DNA from: Octopus vulgaris
Taxonomy: Eukaryota
Direction of reading: 5' to 3'
DNA length: 64,000 nucleotides
NCBI GenBank assembly: GCA_951406725.2
Contig: OX597814.1
Coordinates: forward strand, 145,762,001-145,826,000
Shown: one piece after another, positions 5,499-47,192 of the stretch
Layout: every line of letters begins with the position of its first letter
Position numbering within the stretch: the first letter of the stretch is position 1
Notes under the pieces: model-generated
The model's database searches: none
Told to the model about the DNA's origin: nothing
The model's input: only the letters and a program-made list of their open reading frames with translations
Position numbers and translations under genes: made by a program

Positions 5499-5501
<3 letters not shown>

Positions 5502-6030
5502 GGTGTCCCAAAAAATGCATACACACCTTAAATAATTGTAAATTTGGGGTTTATTATAATTCGAATAATTTTCAACGTGTAAAAGAATTTACAAATATCA
5601 TTCTATTGTCTTGTTATCGCATGTTCTCAAACTGATGTCCGTTCTGCTCCAGACACTGCTGACGACGCGAAGCGATGGAATGGCACACATCATGGAACAA
5701 TTCCCTTGGGATATTCGTACATTCATGTTCCATGGTTGCCCTCAATTGAACGACTGTTGCAGGTTTCTGTGCGTAGACTTTGTCCTTTAGGTATCCCCAT
5801 AAAAAGAAGTCTAGTGGTGTGAGGTCTGGTGAACGTGGAGGGTATTCGACAAAACCTCTCCGTCCAATCCACCTGTTTGGCAAGATCCCACCAAGAAAGG
5901 ATCTAACATCGCAATGGTAGTGTGGAGGTGCCCCATCTTGCTGGAAATAAAACTCTTCCTGTTCAAATTCCTCTCTAATGCTTGGCATGACAGACTGTTG
6001 CAGTCTGTGTATACATTTTTTGGGGACACC

Positions 6031-6033
<3 letters not shown>
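5499..6033 (-). mobile_element. Internally deleted Tc1/mariner element, DD41D (rosa/Visitor-type)
   Basis: ~27-bp TIRs (cagggtgtcccaaaaaatgcatacaca / tgtgtatacattttttggggacaccctg) flanked by TA; ORF 5614-5988 has FQQD-41 aa-D (SPDLTPLDFFLWG). Confidence 0.9.
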
Positions 6034-6066
<33 letters not shown>

Positions 6067-6068
<2 letters not shown>

Positions 6069-7457
6069 TCCCACATACATGATACCAACCACGCCCTCCG
6101 TCTCTTCAATTCCTTTTCCTTCCCTTCCAGCCCCTCACACCTCCTCTTCACCCTTGACATCAAATCACTGTATACGGTGATTCCCCACAACGACGGTCTC
6201 CTAGCTCTCCAACACTTCCTCGACCGTCGCCCCGACCCCACCCCTCCTCCGCCTGGCAGAGCTCGTCCTAACCCTCAACTGTTTCACGTTCGCCGGGGAA
6301 ACGTACGAACAGATGTCCGGGGTCGCCATGGGAACGAGAATGGGTCTCAATTTCGCCAATCTCTTTGTTGGCTACATTGAGGCCCAAGTATTCTCCCAAT
6401 TCTCCAGGCCGACCCCAGAACTATACGGTCGTTACATAGACGACTGTATAGGCGCCACCTCCCTTTCCCGCGAACAACGCTGCCACTTCATCTCTTTCCT
6501 CTCTAACTTCCACCCCTCTCTACAATTCACTTCCACCATATCCAATACTTCCGTTAACTTCATAGATATCTCACTCAGCATCGACCACCCCTCCGCCTTC
6601 TTCAAACCCACGGATTCCCACCTCTATCTCAACTCCTCCTCCCATCACTTCCACACCAAACGGGCTATCCCCTACTCCCAGTTCCTCCGCCTCCGACGCT
6701 TGTGCAGCCGCGACCAGGATTTCGAGACCCAGTCTCAATACCTGGCCCGCCTGTTCAGGCTTCGAGGACACCCACCTACCCTGGTCTTGAACGCCCTCGC
6801 CCGCGCTCGTCGCATCGACCGCACCACCGCCCTTTCTCCTTCCAATCACCCACCCCCCAACCGCACCCCCTTTCCCCTCCTTTTCCACCCCTCTACTCTA
6901 CCCCTTCGTCGGAAGATACTTCTCGCCTTCCGTCGTCTCCAGCTCGATTCCACGACCCACCCCTGTCCTCCTTCAAACGAGCCCGGAATCTACGCGACCT
7001 CCTGGTCCGTAGCACCCTCCCTTCTTCCCCCTCGGCCCCACACGGATCCTTCCCATGCACCAGATCCCGCTGCAACACCTGCCCCTTCATCACCAACACC
7101 ACTGCTGTCACCGGTTCCAACCGGCGAACTGTACGTATCAGGTATTCCTTTACGTGCACCTCGTCTGGACTCATATACTGCATTAAATGCAACCGCTGCA
7201 GGATGCTGTATATAGGACAGACGGGACGCCGGTTGTCAGACCGATTCACTGAGCATCTGCGGGATGTTCGTCTTTTTTCCAATTCTCCCGTCGCACGGCA
7301 CTTCCGCTCAGCCAACCATTCCCCCGATGACATCTCGGTGTTTGGCCTTGCCCCACACAACGGCTCTCCCCAATCTAGGCTTCACTTGGAGCAACGGTTC
7401 ATATTCCTTCTACGGACTCTAACCCCACACGGACTCAACACAGCCTTCTCCTCTTAG
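6067..7457 (+). pseudogene. Frameshifted PLE reverse transcriptase and GIY-YIG endonuclease
   Basis: LDIKSLYTVIPH, GVAMGTRMG..FANLFVG, RYIDD, FKPTD, Cys linker CTRSRCNTC, LIYCIKCNRC..LYIGQTGRRLSDRFTEH, E..FI..L.TL.P.GLN spread over several frames. Confidence 0.92.
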
Positions 7458-10727: not shown

Positions 10728-10950
10728 CATTGAATAATATGGGTTCAAAAAAGTTTTTTACATAATTGTCACATTGAATATTATGCATTCAAAAAAGTTT
10801 TTTACATAATTGTCACATTGGATATTATGGGTTCAAAAAAGTTTTTTACATAATTGTCACATTGAATATTATGCATTCAAAAAAGTTTTTTACATAATTG
10901 TCACATTGGATATTATGAATTCAAAAATGTTTTTTTATACATAATTGTCA
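10728..10950. repeat. 44-bp minisatellite, 5 units
   Basis: Units start at 10728, 10772, 10816, 10860 and 10904 (cattgRatattatg..ttcaaaaaagttttttacataattgtca). Confidence 0.95.
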
Positions 10951-11069
10951 CATTATTTGGGAAAATTTGGCAGAAAAGGATAAAACAAATATATTATTGG
11001 GAATTGGTTGCGTTAATTATTGGTTGTCGCAAATTGTCACATTACATGTATATATATACAATCTTTGGT

Positions 11070-11520
11070 ATATATATACAGCGTTTTGACAGCAAAAATT
11101 AAAATGGATTTTTTGTACATCTCAAAACGCTGTATATATATGAATGGTGCCATTCATACCATGGGCTCCAAGAGAGCGTTTGTCGAAAAGCTTGCTGCGC
11201 ATTTTGTTGGAGATTTAAGTTCCTGGATTTTCCTGAAGAGAAAGCTGCAAAATGGTCTCCTTATTCAATCCGAATTAGGGACTTTGCAGCCTTTGAAACA
11301 TATGTAGAAAATAATAAAAAGGAATTTTGTAAAATCTTCGTTCAGCTCCATTTCTTCCCTCACTAAATATAAAAAACTTCAAATTTCCGCACTAAGGCAC
11401 GGTTTTGAGACCCCATGGTCGTAACCTCAACCATGATTTTTCTGTTGTGATTTTTGCTACCCAGGTATAGGTTATAATTTGAATAATCCGTAACAAGATA
11501 ATTCATTTATCCATTTCAAT
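11070..11520 (+). mobile_element. Solo pseudo-LTR of a sister subfamily of the intact PLE at 43-47 kb, with a small 5' fold-back
   Basis: Colinear with the reverse complement of 42991-43370 (catgggctc, CTGAAGAgaaag, cgttcagctccatttctt, gcacggtt, gatttttgctac..aggtat.ggtta); 19-bp inverted repeat at 11070-11140. Confidence 0.85.
11227..11312 (+). ncRNA. Type I hammerhead ribozyme
   Basis: attttc-CTGAAGA-gaaagctgcaaa...tttgcagccttt-GAAA-catatg-TA-gaaaat; all core nucleotides and three stems present. Confidence 0.85.
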
Positions 11521-12469
11521 AAAAAAATATATATATATACTCTAATATCGACACACACATATATATATTCATTATATACACACATGCATATACACACATA
11601 CACATACAAACATACTCACACACTCATACACACCTACACACATGCATATAGATATAAATATAAACCGGGATTTCACCACATGTCATATAAGAAGATATTT
11701 CAAATACACAATTATTAGAATTTGACATGTATGTATTAGTATGATTGTAACACAATACACAAATCCCGGTGAATACATCTAAGCATTGATTCACTAAATG
11801 AGCGCTCAAAAATAATTTTGAAATATGTGAAAAAAGGGAAAATCTGTGAGTGAAATAAATATTCGAAATGAACACATCTCGAATACACCCACAACTTTTA
11901 TCATTATATTCATCCTATCTTAAAGGCATCTCAGTATTTAGTCGTCTGCTCGCCTCATCAAGTCGTGCGGCATACGACAGATTGCTGTAAAGCCACATTA
12001 TAAATCACATCAGGTTAGACAGATTTAAGTATAATATTGCCAAGTTATGCAAAGGGAATGAAGTGGCCCTGTTTTTATGACGTAGTAAAAATGCCTGTGA
12101 ATTGTTTGACATGGAAATACATTGAGAAAAGTTAACATTCAGGGAAACATTTTTACGTATGTATTAAATAAACCCATAGGATGTACATAGAGCATATCTT
12201 AAATGGTGTAGTCGGATCTACAACTAAACAGTATATGAAATACATAAACGGGAAAAATTCACGTAAAAATTACCCATGGCTAAATGTACTTTTATATGTA
12301 TAATTACATTATGTTAACCTTCCAAGGTATCTAAATGTTTTGTTGATTTCCCCATTATATTCAGTTTAAATAAGTTATATTCCACTGAAGCTGTGCTATA
12401 AATAGCAGGCGGCCATGCCCGGTTGTATATAGCGACTAGTAAGCAATATAGATTCGAGTAGTCCCGAAT

Positions 12470-19300: not shown

Positions 19301-20956
19301 AATTTGAAAAACATCAAGCTGCTTTTTATAGACAAAAACAGAATTATAGAAAAGGTAAGAAATGGTATTATTCGTCAAAATACTAATTAGAATTATACAA
19401 AATTACCTCATACTAATATGTTTTTTATACATAATATATACTTCATTATTTTCAATTAGAGATATGCATTTTTTCGCTACATGTAGGAATCTTTTATAAC
19501 AGGAAAGAAAATAACCTAGCGAAGTTATGTTGGAAAAATGTCGATTTTCTATATGTCACGGGTAAATGCCAGAATGACATAGCAACATGTTTTCATATAG
19601 ATTCATTGTAAATACGCAGTTATTTAACATGTAAACTTACGACATTGAATATAATTTATGTACACAGTTTATCAAAACGCGAAACAAAAACATCGAAATA
19701 AACATAAAAAACGATCAATATTTTTTACGTTAGCTTCCTTTCCACACAGCTCTCCTTCAAGTGACTCGAAAAGCATTATTCCTTTTGCGTTCATTTTCAT
19801 AGTAAAATCATTGAGGTATTAACTGTCTCTAAGATCAATGCCTGGGCATACTTTTACGAAAATGATATATTTGTATTCTTTTCACATCTACTGATGTTCA
19901 ACAATAATTTAGAATTCAAGCTCAACGGGACAATGGAACATGAAATTCATATAACAACTCAGAGAAAGCGTGAAATTGCTGCTACAAATGATGTAAGAGA
20001 TAGACGTGTGAAGTTTCAGTTTATTATTACTTTCACTACAAGAAAGTCGTACGGATGTAAACTGGTTCGTTTGCATAGACGTTAATATGCATGACGATAA
20101 TTTCTATATCTCTTCCTTTCATTAATGGATGTGCTTATGCATGAATGTATGTATGCTTGTATGTATGTATATATGTATGTATGTATGCATGTATGTATGT
20201 ATATATGTATGTATATACGTATGTATGTATCTATTTATCTATCTACCTATCTTTCTCCTCTGTACGTTTGCCAATCTGTCTGCCTCTCTCTCTCTCTCTC
20301 TCTCTCTTATATATTTATATATATATATACATATTTGCATAATACACACACATATGTATGCGCGTGTGTGTCTATGTATATATATATATACATTTGCGCG
20401 CACTCATACACATATATACATATATAAATATATATATATATATGTGTATATATATATGTATATATATGTGTGTGTGCATATGTGTATGGTCATTTATACT
20501 CACGCAGGTACAGAGAACCATGTACATACATTCGCATACACATAAACACGTACGCATGCATATACACACATATCTGTTCAATTGGTATTTCGCAAGTAAT
20601 AGCATCATTGGTTAAGTATTAGCTGTAATTACGACAGCAGGATCCACAAAGAACGTCTGAGCAAATCGTCGGTACTACCATTAGAAAATAACTGTGTTGC
20701 TTAATTTTGTGGGGGCAAATTTATATCTTCCTTCGATATATATCGGTTGCAGTAGAATACATTTCATACATAGGAAATACATAGACGTATATCGTAAGAG
20801 GAATATTCATCAGAAAAGAACCCCCTTATTCTTTGGTTAATAGTACGAGTCACCCACCTTTCAAAGAACTTGAGAAGGTCAGATTCGCATACGAAACTGG
20901 CTTGCCAGAGTGGAAATATACCTCGTAACCAAAAATAATTTTGGTGACCTAGCAAA

Positions 20957-24165: not shown

Positions 24166-24406
24166 TTTTCTTACATGCATACATATATACATACATGCAT
24201 GCATATATATATATGTTTAAGTAGTTGAATGAATTATCCTGGTACGGATAATTCGGTTAACCGATACCCGGGTAGTAAATTTACGTCAGAAAGCACGGTT
24301 GAAGCTACATGCCAAGGGCAGAAATCACATGCTTTCGTGTGGACATTTGTGTGTTTTTTTACTATAGATAAATGAAGGAATGGAGTCGAACGACGATTTA
24401 ACAAAA

Positions 24407-24505
24407 TTCCTTTATTCTCGACGCATGTTTCGAAGACTGCATATTCTTAATTTCGAAGGAATAAAGGGTTCACTATGCCGTCTTCTCATCAGGAAAGACA
24501 AGGAA
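24407..24505 (-). ncRNA. Type I hammerhead ribozyme (left arm)
   Basis: Minus strand: CTGATGA-gaagacggcata...tatgcagtcttc-GAAA-catgcg-TC-gagaataaagg. Confidence 0.8.
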
Positions 24506-24573
24506 CTTATGTCAGCATCATGACAAACAAAAACTTTTTTAAAAGTCTTTGTTCGTCATGATGCTGACATAAG

Positions 24574-24672
24574 TTCCTTGTCTTTCCTGATGAGAAGACG
24601 GCATAGTGAACCCTTTATTCCTTCGGAATTAAGAATATGCAGACTTCGAAACATGTGTCGAGGATAAAGGAA
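24574..24672 (+). ncRNA. Type I hammerhead ribozyme (right arm)
   Basis: ccttgtctttc-CTGATGA-gaagacggcata...tatgcagacttc-GAAA-catgtg-TC-gaggataaagg. Confidence 0.82.
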
Positions 24673-24706
24673 TTTTGTTAAATCGTCGTTCGACTCCATT
24701 CTTTCA

Positions 24707-24848
<142 letters not shown>

Positions 24849-42950: not shown

Positions 42951-42992
<42 letters not shown>

Positions 42993-43198
42993 GTGAAATA
43001 GAAAGATGAATAATCTTGTAGTAGATTAATGAAAAGTTTAACCGATACCTTAGTAGCAAAAATCACAGCAGTAAACAGCACGGTTGGAGGTACAACCATA
43101 TGGTGTTGCAACCGTGCGTTGGTGCGGATAATTGAAATTAAAACATTATTGGTGAATTGAAGAAATGGAGCTGAACGCAGATTGAACAGAAATCGTTT

Positions 43199-43292
43199 TA
43201 TTTCATTCTACACGTGTTTCGAAAGGCACAAATTACCAAAATCCGAATGAATAATGGGACCATATTGTGTCTTTCTCTTCAGGAAGAAAATA
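43199..43292 (-). ncRNA. Type I hammerhead ribozyme in the 3' pseudo-LTR (sense to the ORF)
   Basis: Reverse complement of 47009-47102. Confidence 0.87.
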
Positions 43293-43877
43293 GGAAATCC
43301 GTTGGAAAAACAAAAACAGAACAGAGGCGGAGCAAAAACAAATCGAACTATGCTCCTAAGAGCCCATGGCGAAACTGTTTATCAGTGTATGTTGAGAACC
43401 GGTGGCTGAAGAATTTAACGGGTCAGGCATCGGTCAATCATGTGGGTGTGGGTGTGTAGGTGTTCTTTGTGACCGAGAATAAAGTTCTGACTATTTAAGG
43501 AATATTGGATGTTTTATAAGGGGCGAGAAAAAATCTACTTAGAGACGTGTGTGTGTGTATACTGTTCTATATATGTGTGTTGGCGTAGGGGTAGAAAACA
43601 TTTTTTGTGTACGTGTGTGCGTTTGATCGTTCGGCTGTCAGTGGCTACTGCCGTCAGAACCGCTGGGTGGCAGAAAAAAAATATATATATATTATGTTTT
43701 ATGTGTGTGTGTGTTCATCTAAGCCTGCCTTGTCAAGGAAACCCCCCGCTGTGAAAAAACCAAGCCCCGTTTGTCTTACAGGAGTAATTCCCCTTGCAGC
43801 GGCTAATCGTAGATATCTTAAAGGCTATTTCAGAATTTGTTACCAAGGGCTATGGGTGCCGGTATTATTTATAAACG

Positions 43878-46565
43878 CTATTTAAAAGCCAGATAAGTGT
43901 AGCGCCGCCAATGGGGGCATCGAAAAGCCGACTGTAAAAGCCCGTTTACCATCCGGCTTCTGGCAAACAAAATATGGAAGAGTTCGGAGACACAAAGGTT
44001 GCACTGCCTTCTGCCCCTATCAAATGGGAGGGCCACCGACAAAATTGACCATTCCAGCCTGTAGCTTAAGTTCGTATCATTCAGTCGCCATATTAGTTTA
44101 CTGAGTCCCGTGGTCTGGCGCTTGTTCATGTCCCGAAAAGTTGCGTAATGGTTGGAGACACGCAAAGACAATCTTGAGGATGAGGCCCCTACATAAGTGA
44201 AGACATCTGAGTCCGTGTAAACCTTGCATTGGTAGACGGCGTTTTTGATCTTGGAGTTCGCCGACGTGAATCTTATTCTGCTAGGATTAGTTTCTGAAAT
44301 TAGAACTGCGTTCCTGTCACTATATTCGTTCCGAGACCTGCAGCCGCTTACTACTCTATTTTCCACTACGTCACTATTAACTATAGGAATAACCCCTGAT
44401 TCTCCACTATCTATCAGAGTGCTGTCATTGCTACTGCCCGTGGTGCTGCTATTGCGGGAAATGATGCTGGGGATGCTATTGGGGCTCTCTACCCTACTCC
44501 CATTGTTACCTTCAACCACAACACCCCTATTTATAACTATACCCCTAGTGGGTACTCCCTGGCTGGAGCTGAGATTATGTGTCACTGTACTGGCTCTCAT
44601 ATCATTATTACTACTATAACTATTCTTACTGAGCATTAAACCGGGAGCGGAAGAGGCTGTGCCTCCGGAAAAAGGTGATAAGGTCTTAGTAAGTAGCCTA
44701 TTATTATGGGAGGCGATTATCTGGGCGAGGTTTTTAGTGTTGGAGAAAGCTATCCTAACTTTATGCGAGTTAACCGTGGAGTAATATTTGGAATTTCTGG
44801 GGAAGTTATTGGCGATGGCTTGTCTAAACATGAGGGGGAGGTTAGTTCTAATCTGCTTACCAAAGGGGATTACAAACCATATATGCTTATTCCTATCAGT
44901 GTGATGGGTCGGGACGCCAGCTCTCGCGTTCGGGTGGGTGATTCTCGGATGAACAACGGGTCTTGGGTTAGTGTAAGACCTCCCGGACCGATAATTATCC
45001 TTGTTCGATAAATTAAATGCGGGAGCGACTACCCCGGCATCCGCCGCGCTCCCGTCCTTACTTAAAATGTTAATGTTATTATATACGGCCCTATCCTGAT
45101 GACCGAATGATGGCATCGGAAGGGCCGGATCAATATAAATTACCTTCTGCCTATAACCGGCCTTGGATAGTGCGGCGTTATAAAATTCCGCTTTCTGCTT
45201 AAAAATATCGGCACTGGCGGACAAGCCAGACAATCTTAGAGAGATGTTTTTAACCAAATTGTCTGTTGCGGTTTTGGCATGATTTGAGAAGACACTGACA
45301 TACTTCAAATTAGTGGAAGGTTTATGGTAAGGGCAGTACGAGTCGCTATTAAGGTTAAGTGTAACGTCTAGGAAGTTAGCCTTGGTGAGTTCATTATCAA
45401 AAACTATACTCATGCCCATTCTATTAAAAAACCTAGCTAACCTGCTCTTAGTTTTCTGCACTATTCTGTTCGTGGTGTTTTGCAGGTAAAACAGACAATC
45501 GTCACGATACAGGCCGCCCGCGATCTCCGGGAATTGGTCGGACAATTCGTAGAGAATATATATTCCGACCAAATCGGCTATCTGCGCACTATCCGAACTA
45601 CCCATAGGCACATCAAATTCATTGGGAGTATCTTTACGGATCCACAACTTATTATCAAACTTAATAAACGATTTCCTGGCAACTAAAATGATATCTATCT
45701 CTTCTCTGGTGAGGCCAGCCTTGTTGTGAGCATGCCAGAGGGCCTTATTTAGCACACTAGGGTTAATCGAGGGGTAGAAGCTGGCGATATCAAACTGAAT
45801 GAACCTAGTACGGTTCTTATTGGGGATGGAAGAGAACCACTTCACTACCTGCGAGGAGTTGGCCCAGAGGCTGAGCTTCAGCTTGTTTACTAAACTAGGG
45901 ATATATTTATCTAAAATGTACTTACTGATTATCCCGATATCAGATCTAGCAGGGCATATGAGTCTTAGCGCTGGGTTGGTGTGGAAGTTCGGTTTATGGT
46001 CCTTCACTATAAATCTGGGTTGCTTAGGGCTAAGCGGCTGAGTTCTCATTTGAATTCGGTGTTTAAATATTATTTCCTTAATTTCCAAGTTTACCTTCCT
46101 CAGGGTACTCCAATTGGTTTTTCTATAATTTTTCTTGATCTCTTTACCGAGTAAATCTAGGTACTGCTTAATGGGCATCTTGTATGTGTTCCTGGTCTTG
46201 TCGGACTGGACCAGGACTCCGTCCGTTCTATTAATGTCCTTGGTAATTTTATCTAGGTATCTGAGGTGGGCATTTCTCCTGGGTGACTTCCTGAACTTAA
46301 TCTTTCTAACTATGTCCCACAAGTCGTCCTCAAACTTCTTCAGTCTTGGGTTAGGTGGCGGCGTATCCAATGTTTTAAAAAGCCGGCCGTATTCGGACGA
46401 TGCTGTTGTCCGGTTCGATTTTAGATCTTCGTTCTCGTGGAAGAAAATGAGCCATCTTATCCTGTTTATGAATGCGTTGGTTTTACAAACCAACTCCTTA
46501 AGGAAGGCATCCTTCGGTGGTATAGGAATATCCTTAAGGGACGCATCAATCTCGAACAACTCCAT
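43878..46565 (-). CDS. PLE polyprotein: reverse transcriptase plus C-terminal GIY-YIG endonuclease (895 aa)
   Basis: SDKT, KDHK..F..NP..RLI, FDIASFYPSI, FDVPMGS, GLYRDD, NFLDVTL, PYHKP; EN AVY-x12-YVG, R..NH, CNLC..E, VN, CPH. Confidence 0.95.
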   Translation of the reverse strand: MELFEIDASLKDIPIPPKDAFLKELVCKTNAFINRIRWLIFFHENEDLKSNRTTASSEYGRLFKTLDTPPPNPRLKKFEDDLWDIVRKIKFRKSPRRNAHLRYLDKITKDINRTDGVLVQSDKTRNTYKMPIKQYLDLLGKEIKKNYRKTNWSTLRKVNLEIKEIIFKHRIQMRTQPLSPKQPRFIVKDHKPNFHTNPALRLICPARSDIGIISKYILDKYIPSLVNKLKLSLWANSSQVVKWFSSIPNKNRTRFIQFDIASFYPSINPSVLNKALWHAHNKAGLTREEIDIILVARKSFIKFDNKLWIRKDTPNEFDVPMGSSDSAQIADLVGIYILYELSDQFPEIAGGLYRDDCLFYLQNTTNRIVQKTKSRLARFFNRMGMSIVFDNELTKANFLDVTLNLNSDSYCPYHKPSTNLKYVSVFSNHAKTATDNLVKNISLRLSGLSASADIFKQKAEFYNAALSKAGYRQKVIYIDPALPMPSFGHQDRAVYNNINILSKDGSAADAGVVAPAFNLSNKDNYRSGRSYTNPRPVVHPRITHPNARAGVPTHHTDRNKHIWFVIPFGKQIRTNLPLMFRQAIANNFPRNSKYYSTVNSHKVRIAFSNTKNLAQIIASHNNRLLTKTLSPFSGGTASSAPGLMLSKNSYSSNNDMRASTVTHNLSSSQGVPTRGIVINRGVVVEGNNGSRVESPNSIPSIISRNSSTTGSSNDSTLIDSGESGVIPIVNSDVVENRVVSGCRSRNEYSDRNAVLISETNPSRIRFTSANSKIKNAVYQCKVYTDSDVFTYVGASSSRLSLRVSNHYATFRDMNKRQTTGLSKLIWRLNDTNLSYRLEWSILSVALPFDRGRRQCNLCVSELFHILFARSRMVNGLLQSAFRCPHWRRYTYLAFK

Positions 46566-46613
46566 TATTGGTATCGGTTAAAGTAGCAGTTTCTTGACGA
46601 AGCGGTATGTATT

Positions 46614-46765
46614 ATGTGAAATAGAAAGATGAATAATCTTGTAGTAGATTAATCAAAAGTTTAACCGATACCTTAGTAGCAAAAATCACAGCAGTAAACA
46701 GCACGGTTGGAGGTACAACCATATGGTGTTGCAACCGTGCGTTGGTGCGGATAATTGAAATTAAA
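46614..46765 (+). repeat. Direct repeat of 42991-43142 (pLTR segment A)
   Basis: One mismatch seen (taatGaaaag vs taatCaaaag); offset 3623 bp. Confidence 0.97.
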
Positions 46766-46767
46766 GC

Positions 46768-47153
46768 ATTTTTCTCGCCCCTTATAAAACATCCAATATT
46801 CCTTAAATAGTCAGAACTTTATTCTCGGTCACAAAGAACACCTACACACCCTCACCCACATGATTGACCGATGCCTGACCCGTTAAATTCTTCAGCCACC
46901 GGTTCTCAACATACACTGATAAACAGTTTCGCCATGGGCTCTTAGGAGCATAGTTCGATTTGTTTTTGCTCCGCCTCTGTTCTGTTTTTGTTTTTCCAAC
47001 GGATTTCCTATTTTCTTCCTGAAGAGAAAGACACAATATGGTCCCATTATTCATTCGGATTTTGGTAATTTGTGCCTTTCGAAACACGTGTAGAATGAAA
47101 TAAAACGATTTCTGTTCAATCTGCGTTCAGCTCCATTTCTTCAATTCACCAAT

Positions 47154-47162
<9 letters not shown>
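46768..47162 (-). repeat. Inverted copy of 43139-43534 (pLTR segment B)
   Basis: The 81-aa track ORFs 43214-43459(+) and 46842-47087(-) differ by one residue. Confidence 0.97.
47009..47102 (+). ncRNA. Type I hammerhead ribozyme in the inverted 5' pseudo-LTR
   Basis: tattttcttc-CTGAAGA-gaaagacacaa...ttgtgcctttc-GAAA-cacgtg-TA-gaatgaaata. Confidence 0.87.

Positions 47163-47192
<30 letters not shown>

What the first reader, a model, noticed from the sequence alone, without database searches (positions are those of the whole stretch)
42991..47162. Intact, young Penelope-like retroelement with hammerhead pseudo-LTRs and a clean 5' inversion
Seen: an unbroken 895-aa RT + GIY-YIG ORF with catalytic motifs intact. 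Its terminal repeats differ at only about 2-4 positions over ~545 bp, and it has (TA)n flanks. The upstream pLTR is split: segment A (152 bp) is direct, while segment B (~395 bp) is flipped with essentially no loss at the A/B boundary. Known: PLEs form partial tandems with inverted 5' pLTRs and carry minimal hammerheads. Inference: a recent, possibly active, TA-targeting family. The flip resembles twin priming, and the repeat unit is 3623 nt. The motifs (KDHK..RLI.P, GLYRDD, C.LC..E..C.H) differ from the Neptune-like copy at 6 kb and recall Nematis/Hydra-type PLEs; the clade is not established.
Basis: partly seen in the sequence, partly recalled or inferred. Interest (0 to 1): 0.75.

Follow-up and report, generated by a model that had tools for sequence, protein, structure and literature searches.

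The report
Hydra-type Penelope lacking its zinc finger
This is an intact, recent copy of a known type of jumping gene (a Penelope-like retrotransposon, likely in an octopus) whose "flipped" end likely comes from two fixed copying start points, and whose family sits in TA repeats although its protein lacks the small zinc-finger motif proposed to aim such elements there.

Summary
Observation confirmed: an 895-aa minus-strand ORF, two repeats differing at 2 of 546 bases, (TA)n on both sides, and segment B inverted in the upstream repeat. The protein has Hydra-clade motifs, a telomerase-like RT fold and a GIY-YIG fold; Nematis and Neptune motifs are absent. The flip point is not a chance twin-priming site. 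Other copies join (TA)n at the same A/B boundary (12 contigs in 3 of 4 runs) and at the end of A (29 contigs in one run), and a diverged relative at 24 kb has the same one-sided arm. So B is the ordinary inverted pLTR and A a long (~150 nt) PLE tail between two likely RT start sites. What differs from described Hydra elements: the CxCX5C linker is lost (115 of 115 aligned homologs keep 4 or more Cys) inside a 130-aa disordered insert; hammerhead domain II is 55 nt (10-25 in 24 relatives); the unit is 3.6 kb. The family is multicopy and TA-joined, so it can test whether the linker drives microsatellite targeting. Activity, ribozyme cleavage and empty-site polymorphism are untested. The scan noted long stems and two-start geometry before on other DNA, but not the linker loss.

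The parts
42954..42990 (.). (TA)n target tract at the element's 3' end
42991..43142 (-). Segment A, 3' copy: long tail between inferred RT start site 2 (42983-42991) and start site 1 (43139-43142)
   Evidence: (29 contigs join (TA)n at the equivalent 46606), 44
43139..43532 (-). Segment B, 3' pLTR proper, in native (sense) orientation
43199..43292 (-). Type I hammerhead motif, sense; 55-nt domain II, palindromic stem III, predicted cut after 43209
   Evidence: cleavage untested; not scored by Rfam
43533..43877 (-). Single-copy part of the 3' UTR
43878..46565 (-). Intact 895-aa ORF: Hydra-type RT, thumb, GIY-YIG endonuclease
43881..44264 (-). GIY-YIG endonuclease domain with Tyr, Tyr-x-Gly, Arg, His, CxxC, Glu, Asn, CxH kept
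   Evidence: I-TevI Z 9.8, rmsd 2.4, 89 aligned
44274..44666 (-). Ser/Asn-rich insert, predicted disordered, where Hydra elements carry the CxCX5C linker; one Cys left (44348-44319)
44910..45104 (-). Second in-frame insert within the thumb region, predicted disordered
46566..46613 (-). 5' leader; 46570-46582 is the perfect 13-nt complement of 46660-46672 in segment A, predicted to enclose start site 2
46614..46765 (-). Segment A, upstream direct copy
46766..46768 (.). Junction of the two arms (3 untemplated bases, or one substitution plus microhomology)
46769..47162 (+). Inverted segment B (inverted 5' pLTR), its outer end at start site 1; holds the antisense hammerhead at 47009-47102
47163..47190 (.). 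(TA)n target tract at the inverted arm

Best explanation
This is an intact copy of a multicopy Penelope-like retrotransposon of the Hydra lineage whose endonuclease likely nicks both strands of a (TA)n tract and whose reverse transcriptase likely starts from each nick at one of two fixed sites on its RNA, about 150 nt apart. Shown: layout, motifs, predicted folds, and that family copies join (TA)n at both sites. Inferred: one cDNA began at site 2 (end of A) and copied A, B, the 3' UTR, the ORF, the leader and A again (3623+152 nt). The other began from the opposite strand at site 1 (A/B boundary) and copied 394 nt of B. The two were then end-joined, giving inverted pLTR - ORF - pLTR - tail. 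The long cDNA stops within 0-8 nt of site 1, so both primers likely used one tandem or re-ligated circular RNA, uncut at the hammerhead site, which the inverted arm crosses. The family likely moves with its own protein, so TA preference here would not need the CxCX5C linker; it would come from the endonuclease core and 1-3 nt pairing of the TA primer at AU-rich start sites.
For: Two termini: (TA)n loose ends at 43139/43142 in 12 contigs from 3 of 4 runs (22 of 108 rows shown) and at 46606 in 29 contigs of run X4 (24 of 535 rows shown). The relative at 24206-24714 has inverted arms with the A-like tail on one arm only. In vitro, PAc cleaves and extends both strands, starts at two internal sites that bound the tail, and does not need hammerhead cleavage (PMC11167929). 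One donor: the B arms differ at 1 site but share bases at 43247, 43416 and 43460 where most other copies differ. A stop within 8 of 546 positions has about 1.5% chance. Folds: telomerase first (Foldseek E 2.6e-9); I-TevI first for the C-terminal domain. Multicopy: ORF contigs with 0-3 differences have depth 1004-2775 against 12-29 for most flank contigs (rough, not a copy number). Linker: 115 of 115 aligned homologs with the C-terminal CxxC have 4 or more Cys there and this ORF has 1; 44 of 44 complete ORFs in fetched loci keep CxC..C; a run-X1 contig covers the remnant with 0 differences. Selection: 9 of the 18 listed ORF differences are synonymous against 4.8 expected (p 0.02), 7 of 11 outside the inserts and 2 of 7 inside.
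Against: No biochemistry and no RNA run on record. No listed contig reproduces this copy's junction, and none of 20 sibling junctions does: 14 of 20 are fold-backs (arm ends within 25 nt of each other), which blocking on one RNA does not give (single contigs from one run, 23-28 nt sides where given). A loose end does not tell whether a site-1 junction is a direct or an inverted arm. [quoted passage not shown] The 18 variants are from 40 of 124 rows chosen by the tool. Hydra elements with the finger exist in octopus (Hydra-1_Obim) and could act in trans. Rfam and Pfam give nothing.
Confidence: 0.68

Rival explanations
1. Fold-back self-priming or template switching by one cDNA, with the endonuclease resolving the intermediate, makes the inverted arm and the one-sided tail; site 1 is then a resolution site, not an RT start.
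For: 14 of 20 sibling junctions are fold-backs, and the 24-kb relative has a palindromic centre. Self-priming is proposed in PMC3846280 and endonuclease resolution of the tail in PMC8557442.
Against: This copy's junction joins the equivalent of 43142 to 43532, 390 nt apart, so it is not a fold-back. PMC11167929 maps tail ends to RT start sites.
Confidence: 0.15
2. Chance L1-type twin priming: the second primer annealed at a random AU-rich spot on the RNA.
For: Near-zero loss at the flip, 1-3 nt TA microhomology. Three sibling junctions stop inside A, short of site 1.
Against: The same position is a (TA)n junction in 12 other contigs from 3 runs, and the 24-kb relative ends about 10-15 nt from it.
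Confidence: 0.08
3. On targeting only: the family's TA preference comes from a finger-bearing Hydra protein acting in trans, or another Cys/His site replaces the finger, so the linker hypothesis stands.
For: Octopus has a finger-bearing Hydra family (Hydra-1_Obim). The C-terminal CxxC and CxH are kept here and could bind metal.
Against: The ORF is intact with a synonymous excess in folded domains; an Octopus sinensis gene model 62-64% identical shares both inserts, so the layout is old. That model ends before the Cys remnant, so its finger state is unknown.
Confidence: 0.2
4. Assembly artefact or a later inversion of B.
For: Such structures trouble short-read assemblies (PMC8557442); no listed contig spans the locus.
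Against: The arms differ at one site, where the inverted arm has the family base; the breakpoint matches a family terminus; B is duplicated, not moved.
Confidence: 0.04

Closest known systems
Hydra clade of Penelope-like elements with C-terminal endonuclease (Craig et al. 2021, PMC8557442; read sections 11, 12, 15, passages, and supplement parts 1, 2, 52, 58 plus two searches), incl. Hydra-1_Obim, 2507 bp
   Same: RW, DKT, KDHK and GLYRDD motifs; C-terminal GIY-YIG with CxxC and CxH around Glu/Asn; sense hammerhead in the pLTR; (TA)n junctions; a 5' inverted copy is noted for Penelope-13_HM.
   Different: CxCX5C linker lost; RWK reads RWL; 895 aa and 3623-nt unit against about 700 aa and mostly under 3 kb; hammerhead domain II 55 nt; tail about 150 nt against the 30-40 bp given for PLEs.
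PAc, Poseidon element of Anolis carolinensis (Frangieh et al. 2024, PMC11167929; read parts 1-2 of 4)
   Same: Both strands cleaved and extended; two internal RT start sites bounding the tail, in a stem-loop downstream of the pLTR.
   Different: Other clade; its start sites lie 111-118 nt into the ORF, here site 2 lies about 45-50 nt before the ATG and site 1 about 150 nt further upstream; the sites here are inferred from junctions only.
Adineta vaga Pen2a/Pen3/Pen4 (PMC3846280; read passages)
   Same: Direct plus inverted pLTR with one-sided 31-bp tail; Asn-rich in-frame inserts between RT and endonuclease or before the thumb.
   Different: Other lineage; target-site duplications; the passages read say nothing of a lost linker finger.
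Octopus sinensis gene model named 'myb-like protein I' (P0122)
   Same: 62-64% identical over RT end, thumb and both inserts; likely a misannotated sister family.
   Different: Fragment of 351 aa, ending before the Cys remnant and the endonuclease.

Membership tests
Penelope-like element with C-terminal endonuclease | Single ORF with telomerase-related RT | tested here: met
   Model pLDDT over 90 across most of the RT; telomerases rank first. Pfam and PDB sequence searches blank.
Penelope-like element with C-terminal endonuclease | C-terminal GIY-YIG endonuclease | tested here: met
   I-TevI Z 9.8, rmsd 2.4, 89 aligned; next rows T4 EndoII and UvrC; invariant Tyr, Tyr, Gly, Arg, His, Glu, Asn kept.
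Penelope-like element with C-terminal endonuclease | Partial tandem with pLTRs, inverted 5' copy, one-sided tail | tested here: met
   the tail is about 150 nt rather than 30-40.
Hydra clade | DKT for DKG; divergent RT4; GLYRDD/KDHK as in the published alignment | tested here: met
   all 15 GLYRDD and all 15 KDHK hits in the supplement are Hydra-clade rows; Penelope, Nematis and Neptune rows read YV/IDD.
Hydra clade | N-terminal RWK motif | tested here: inconclusive
   RW kept, third residue Leu.
Hydra clade | CxCX5C linker between thumb and endonuclease | tested here: not met
   One Cys left against 4 or more in 115 of 115 homologs; not present in the other two frames.
Hydra clade | No CCHH; CxxC and CxH flanking conserved Glu and Asn | tested here: met
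   compare the CCHH-type endonuclease of the 6-kb element.
Hydra clade | Canonical hammerhead in the pLTR | tested here: inconclusive
   Core, stems I-III and cleavage triplet present, but domain II is 55 nt, Rfam is blank and cleavage is untested.
Hydra clade | Insertion into (TA)n | tested here: met
Hydra clade | RT phylogeny with named Hydra references | tested here: inconclusive
   Quick tree of 64 rows nests it (SH-aLRT 99) in 13 unnamed homologs, some finger-bearing. No named reference rows; careful search unfinished.
Nematis or Neptune | YIDD-type RT5, CX2-5CxxC linker, CCHH endonuclease | tested here: not met
   The 6-kb copy does match the Neptune rows.

The most novel reading that the evidence does not exclude
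An autonomous, recently expanded Hydra-lineage retrotransposon has lost the linker zinc finger yet still inserts into (TA)n. Microsatellite targeting is therefore set by the endonuclease core and by two structured AU-rich start sites on the RNA, and the two-armed insertions come from double priming on one circular or tandem RNA.
Probability: 0.35. Interest if true: 0.6.

Novelty: new variant of a known kind. Interest (0 to 1): 0.4.

Why it matters
Craig et al. 2021 link the linker zinc finger to microsatellite targeting and name PLE tandem/inverted structures and microsatellite bias as open questions needing an in vitro system. An intact finger-less family that still joins (TA)n is a natural test, and its 150-nt spacing makes the two start sites easy to resolve. 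The weight is limited: that paper already notes microsatellite bias without this linker in Chlamys, and young PLEs are common in octopus (31 families, 336 recent insertions; PMC13282606 Table 1).

Tried and rejected
No genome is held for this window, so no copy census. Rfam: no hammerhead hit, only microsatellite noise. Pfam: nothing significant. PDB by sequence profile: 0. Foldseek on the endonuclease alone: nothing at E 0.001, though GIY-YIG chains lead. No RNA holder listed among 24 runs; runs guessed as RNA may be DNA, so nothing on expression. Empty-site test: contigs break at the microsatellites, so it was not testable. Search for short close relatives covering the linker remnant and endonuclease: none, so the loss cannot be dated. 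A finger hidden in another frame: not present. Formal pair counting for the hammerhead was not done; with three independent sequences I only compared folds, and this element's 101-nt hammerhead region folds no better than shuffles (z -0.34). The z of -5 for tail plus leader used mononucleotide shuffles and overstates. Regex linker lengths miss some long-insert homologs (P0143, P0162 have long inserts and keep the finger), so the insert alone is not unusual. Tail length in other Hydra elements could not be measured: only 5 of 78 loci gave a cut-to-(TA)n distance, 32-95 nt. Paper searches and note searches gave no report of a finger-less Hydra element; Repbase, Dfam, subscription papers and unread supplements (including the octopus repeat library of PMC13282606) could hold this family.
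Full report
Observation. The ORF runs on the minus strand from 46565 to 43878 (895 aa), so the element's 5' end is at the right. Segment A (42991-43142) recurs directly 3623 nt away with 1 mismatch; segment B (43139-43532) recurs inverted at 46769-47162 with 1 mismatch. (TA)n flanks both ends.

Protein. Pfam and a PDB sequence profile gave nothing. An AlphaFold model from 122 sequences is confident except for two stretches (P0001 residues 492-556 and 638-768). It matches telomerases first, and the C-terminal domain alone matches I-TevI, T4 EndoII and UvrC. Of 408 homologs found, the 120 listed are mostly about 700 aa, with best local identity 30-43%. Craig et al. define Hydra by RWK, DKT, a divergent RT4, no CCHH, a CxCX5C linker, CxxC and CxH motifs, hammerheads and (TA)n insertion. 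In their supplement all 15 GLYRDD and all 15 KDHK hits are Hydra-clade rows, while Nematis and Neptune rows differ. A quick tree without named references nests this RT among finger-bearing homologs. The host is likely an octopus: the closest named relative is an Octopus sinensis gene model at 62-64% identity. This is inference.

The missing finger. In alignment A4, 115 of 115 homologs that reach the C-terminal CxxC have 4 or more Cys between thumb and endonuclease (median 37 aa). This ORF has 1 Cys in 156 aa. All 44 complete ORFs among 78 fetched loci keep the motif. It is not hidden in another frame. A contig of run X1 covers the remnant with 0 differences, and X1 contigs cover almost all of the ORF without internal gaps, so the state is not private to this copy. 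Differences from other copies are synonymous in 9 of 18 listed cases against 4.8 expected, 7 of 11 outside and 2 of 7 inside the inserts; these come from 40 of 124 rows, so the signal is modest. Long low-complexity inserts alone are not new: P0143 and P0162 have them and keep the finger, and Adineta Penelopes have Asn-rich ones.

The flip. Laying public contigs on the native-order repeat showed (TA)n joined at 43139 or 43142 in 12 contigs from 3 of 4 runs, and at the end of A (46606, equal to 42983) in 29 contigs of one run. The relative at 24.2-24.7 kb has two inverted arms, one ending just short of the A/B boundary in a microsatellite and the other running through A. So the family has two termini about 150 nt apart. 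That is the described PLE tail, given as 30-40 bp, which in PAc lies between two RT start sites, with both target strands cleaved and extended. I therefore read B as the inverted pLTR started at site 1 from one strand, and the long arm as started at site 2 from the other. The long arm stops within 0-8 nt of site 1 on its second pass (about 1.5% by chance), which suggests both primers used one RNA. The inverted arm crosses the predicted hammerhead cut, so that RNA was uncut or re-ligated there. A perfect 13-bp helix between A and the leader before the ATG would enclose site 2 and exists only where A runs into a leader. Against a single rule: 14 of 20 sibling junctions taken are fold-backs and none matches this copy's junction; they are single contigs from one run, with short sides.

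Hammerhead. Core, stem I, palindromic stem III and cleavage triplet are present in the element and both relatives, with a 54-55 nt domain II predicted to fold in each despite sequence change. The 24 downstream hammerheads found in 78 related loci have 10-25 nt there (one upstream motif has 39), and the published Hydra table shows short stems. Rfam does not score it. Cleavage is untested. Earlier notes of this scan report long stems in octopus Hydra elements.

Age and abundance. Two differences in 546 nt give about 0.5 My (0.06-1.8) if the host is an octopus, the rate implied in PMC13282606 holds and both arose after insertion; RT errors would make it younger. 20 runs from 9 studies under three organism codes hold 58-71% of the element's words. 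ORF contigs with 0-3 differences are roughly 60-190 times deeper than flank contigs, and depth falls towards the 5' end (rough). This copy differs from the commonest copies by about 1%, while its two B arms share those differences, so both arms came from one donor. Current activity is not shown.

Verdict. It is a Penelope-like element beyond reasonable doubt and belongs to the Hydra lineage by most motifs. It fails one described Hydra feature, the linker finger, so I file it as a new variant. The value lies in the finger loss with retained TA joining, the long tail, and an intact ORF suited to testing both. Papers seen: PMC8557442 (sections 11, 12, 15, passages, supplement parts named above), PMC11167929 (parts 1-2 of 4), PMC3846280 and PMC13282606 (passages), bioRxiv 10.64898/2026.07.22.740005 (abstract and outline). 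L1 twin priming is recalled, not read. Interest 0.4.

Noticed in passing
window 24206-24714: Non-coding fold-back relative: two inverted hammerhead arms with a palindromic centre, A-like tail on one arm, (TA)n and (TATC)n(TA)n flanks; long domain II as in the main element.
   Followed up: yes
window 11197-11529: Solo older pLTR plus tail, about 75% identical, ending in (TA)n, with an intact-looking long-stem hammerhead.
   Followed up: yes
window 6205-7457: Broken Neptune-like PLE: RT matches the Neptune1_Ap row, with a CX4CxxC linker and CCHH-type endonuclease in a second frame.
   Followed up: partly
window 20725-20823: Further weak hammerhead-like pattern on the minus strand from the motif scan; may be chance.
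   Followed up: no
window 43188-43246: Eight of 20 sibling junctions in run X4 fall near the predicted hammerhead cut at 43209; may reflect run-off at a cleaved 5' end or the local palindrome.
   Followed up: partly
window 5499-6036: About 540-bp insert between (TA)n tracts with terminal inverted repeats seen by eye and transposase-like frames; looks like a short Tc1/mariner-type element (label recalled).
   Followed up: no
window 10733-10960: Tandem array of about 50-60 bp units between (TA)n-flanked sequence.
   Followed up: no
P0122 and P0020: NCBI gene models named myb-like protein I (Octopus sinensis) and GATA zinc finger protein 14-like (Argonauta hians) are likely Hydra-type PLE ORFs.
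   Followed up: partly
L011 1-5083: Two near-identical (99.9%) head-to-tail Hydra-like units in one contig; a full tandem or an assembly loop.
   Followed up: no
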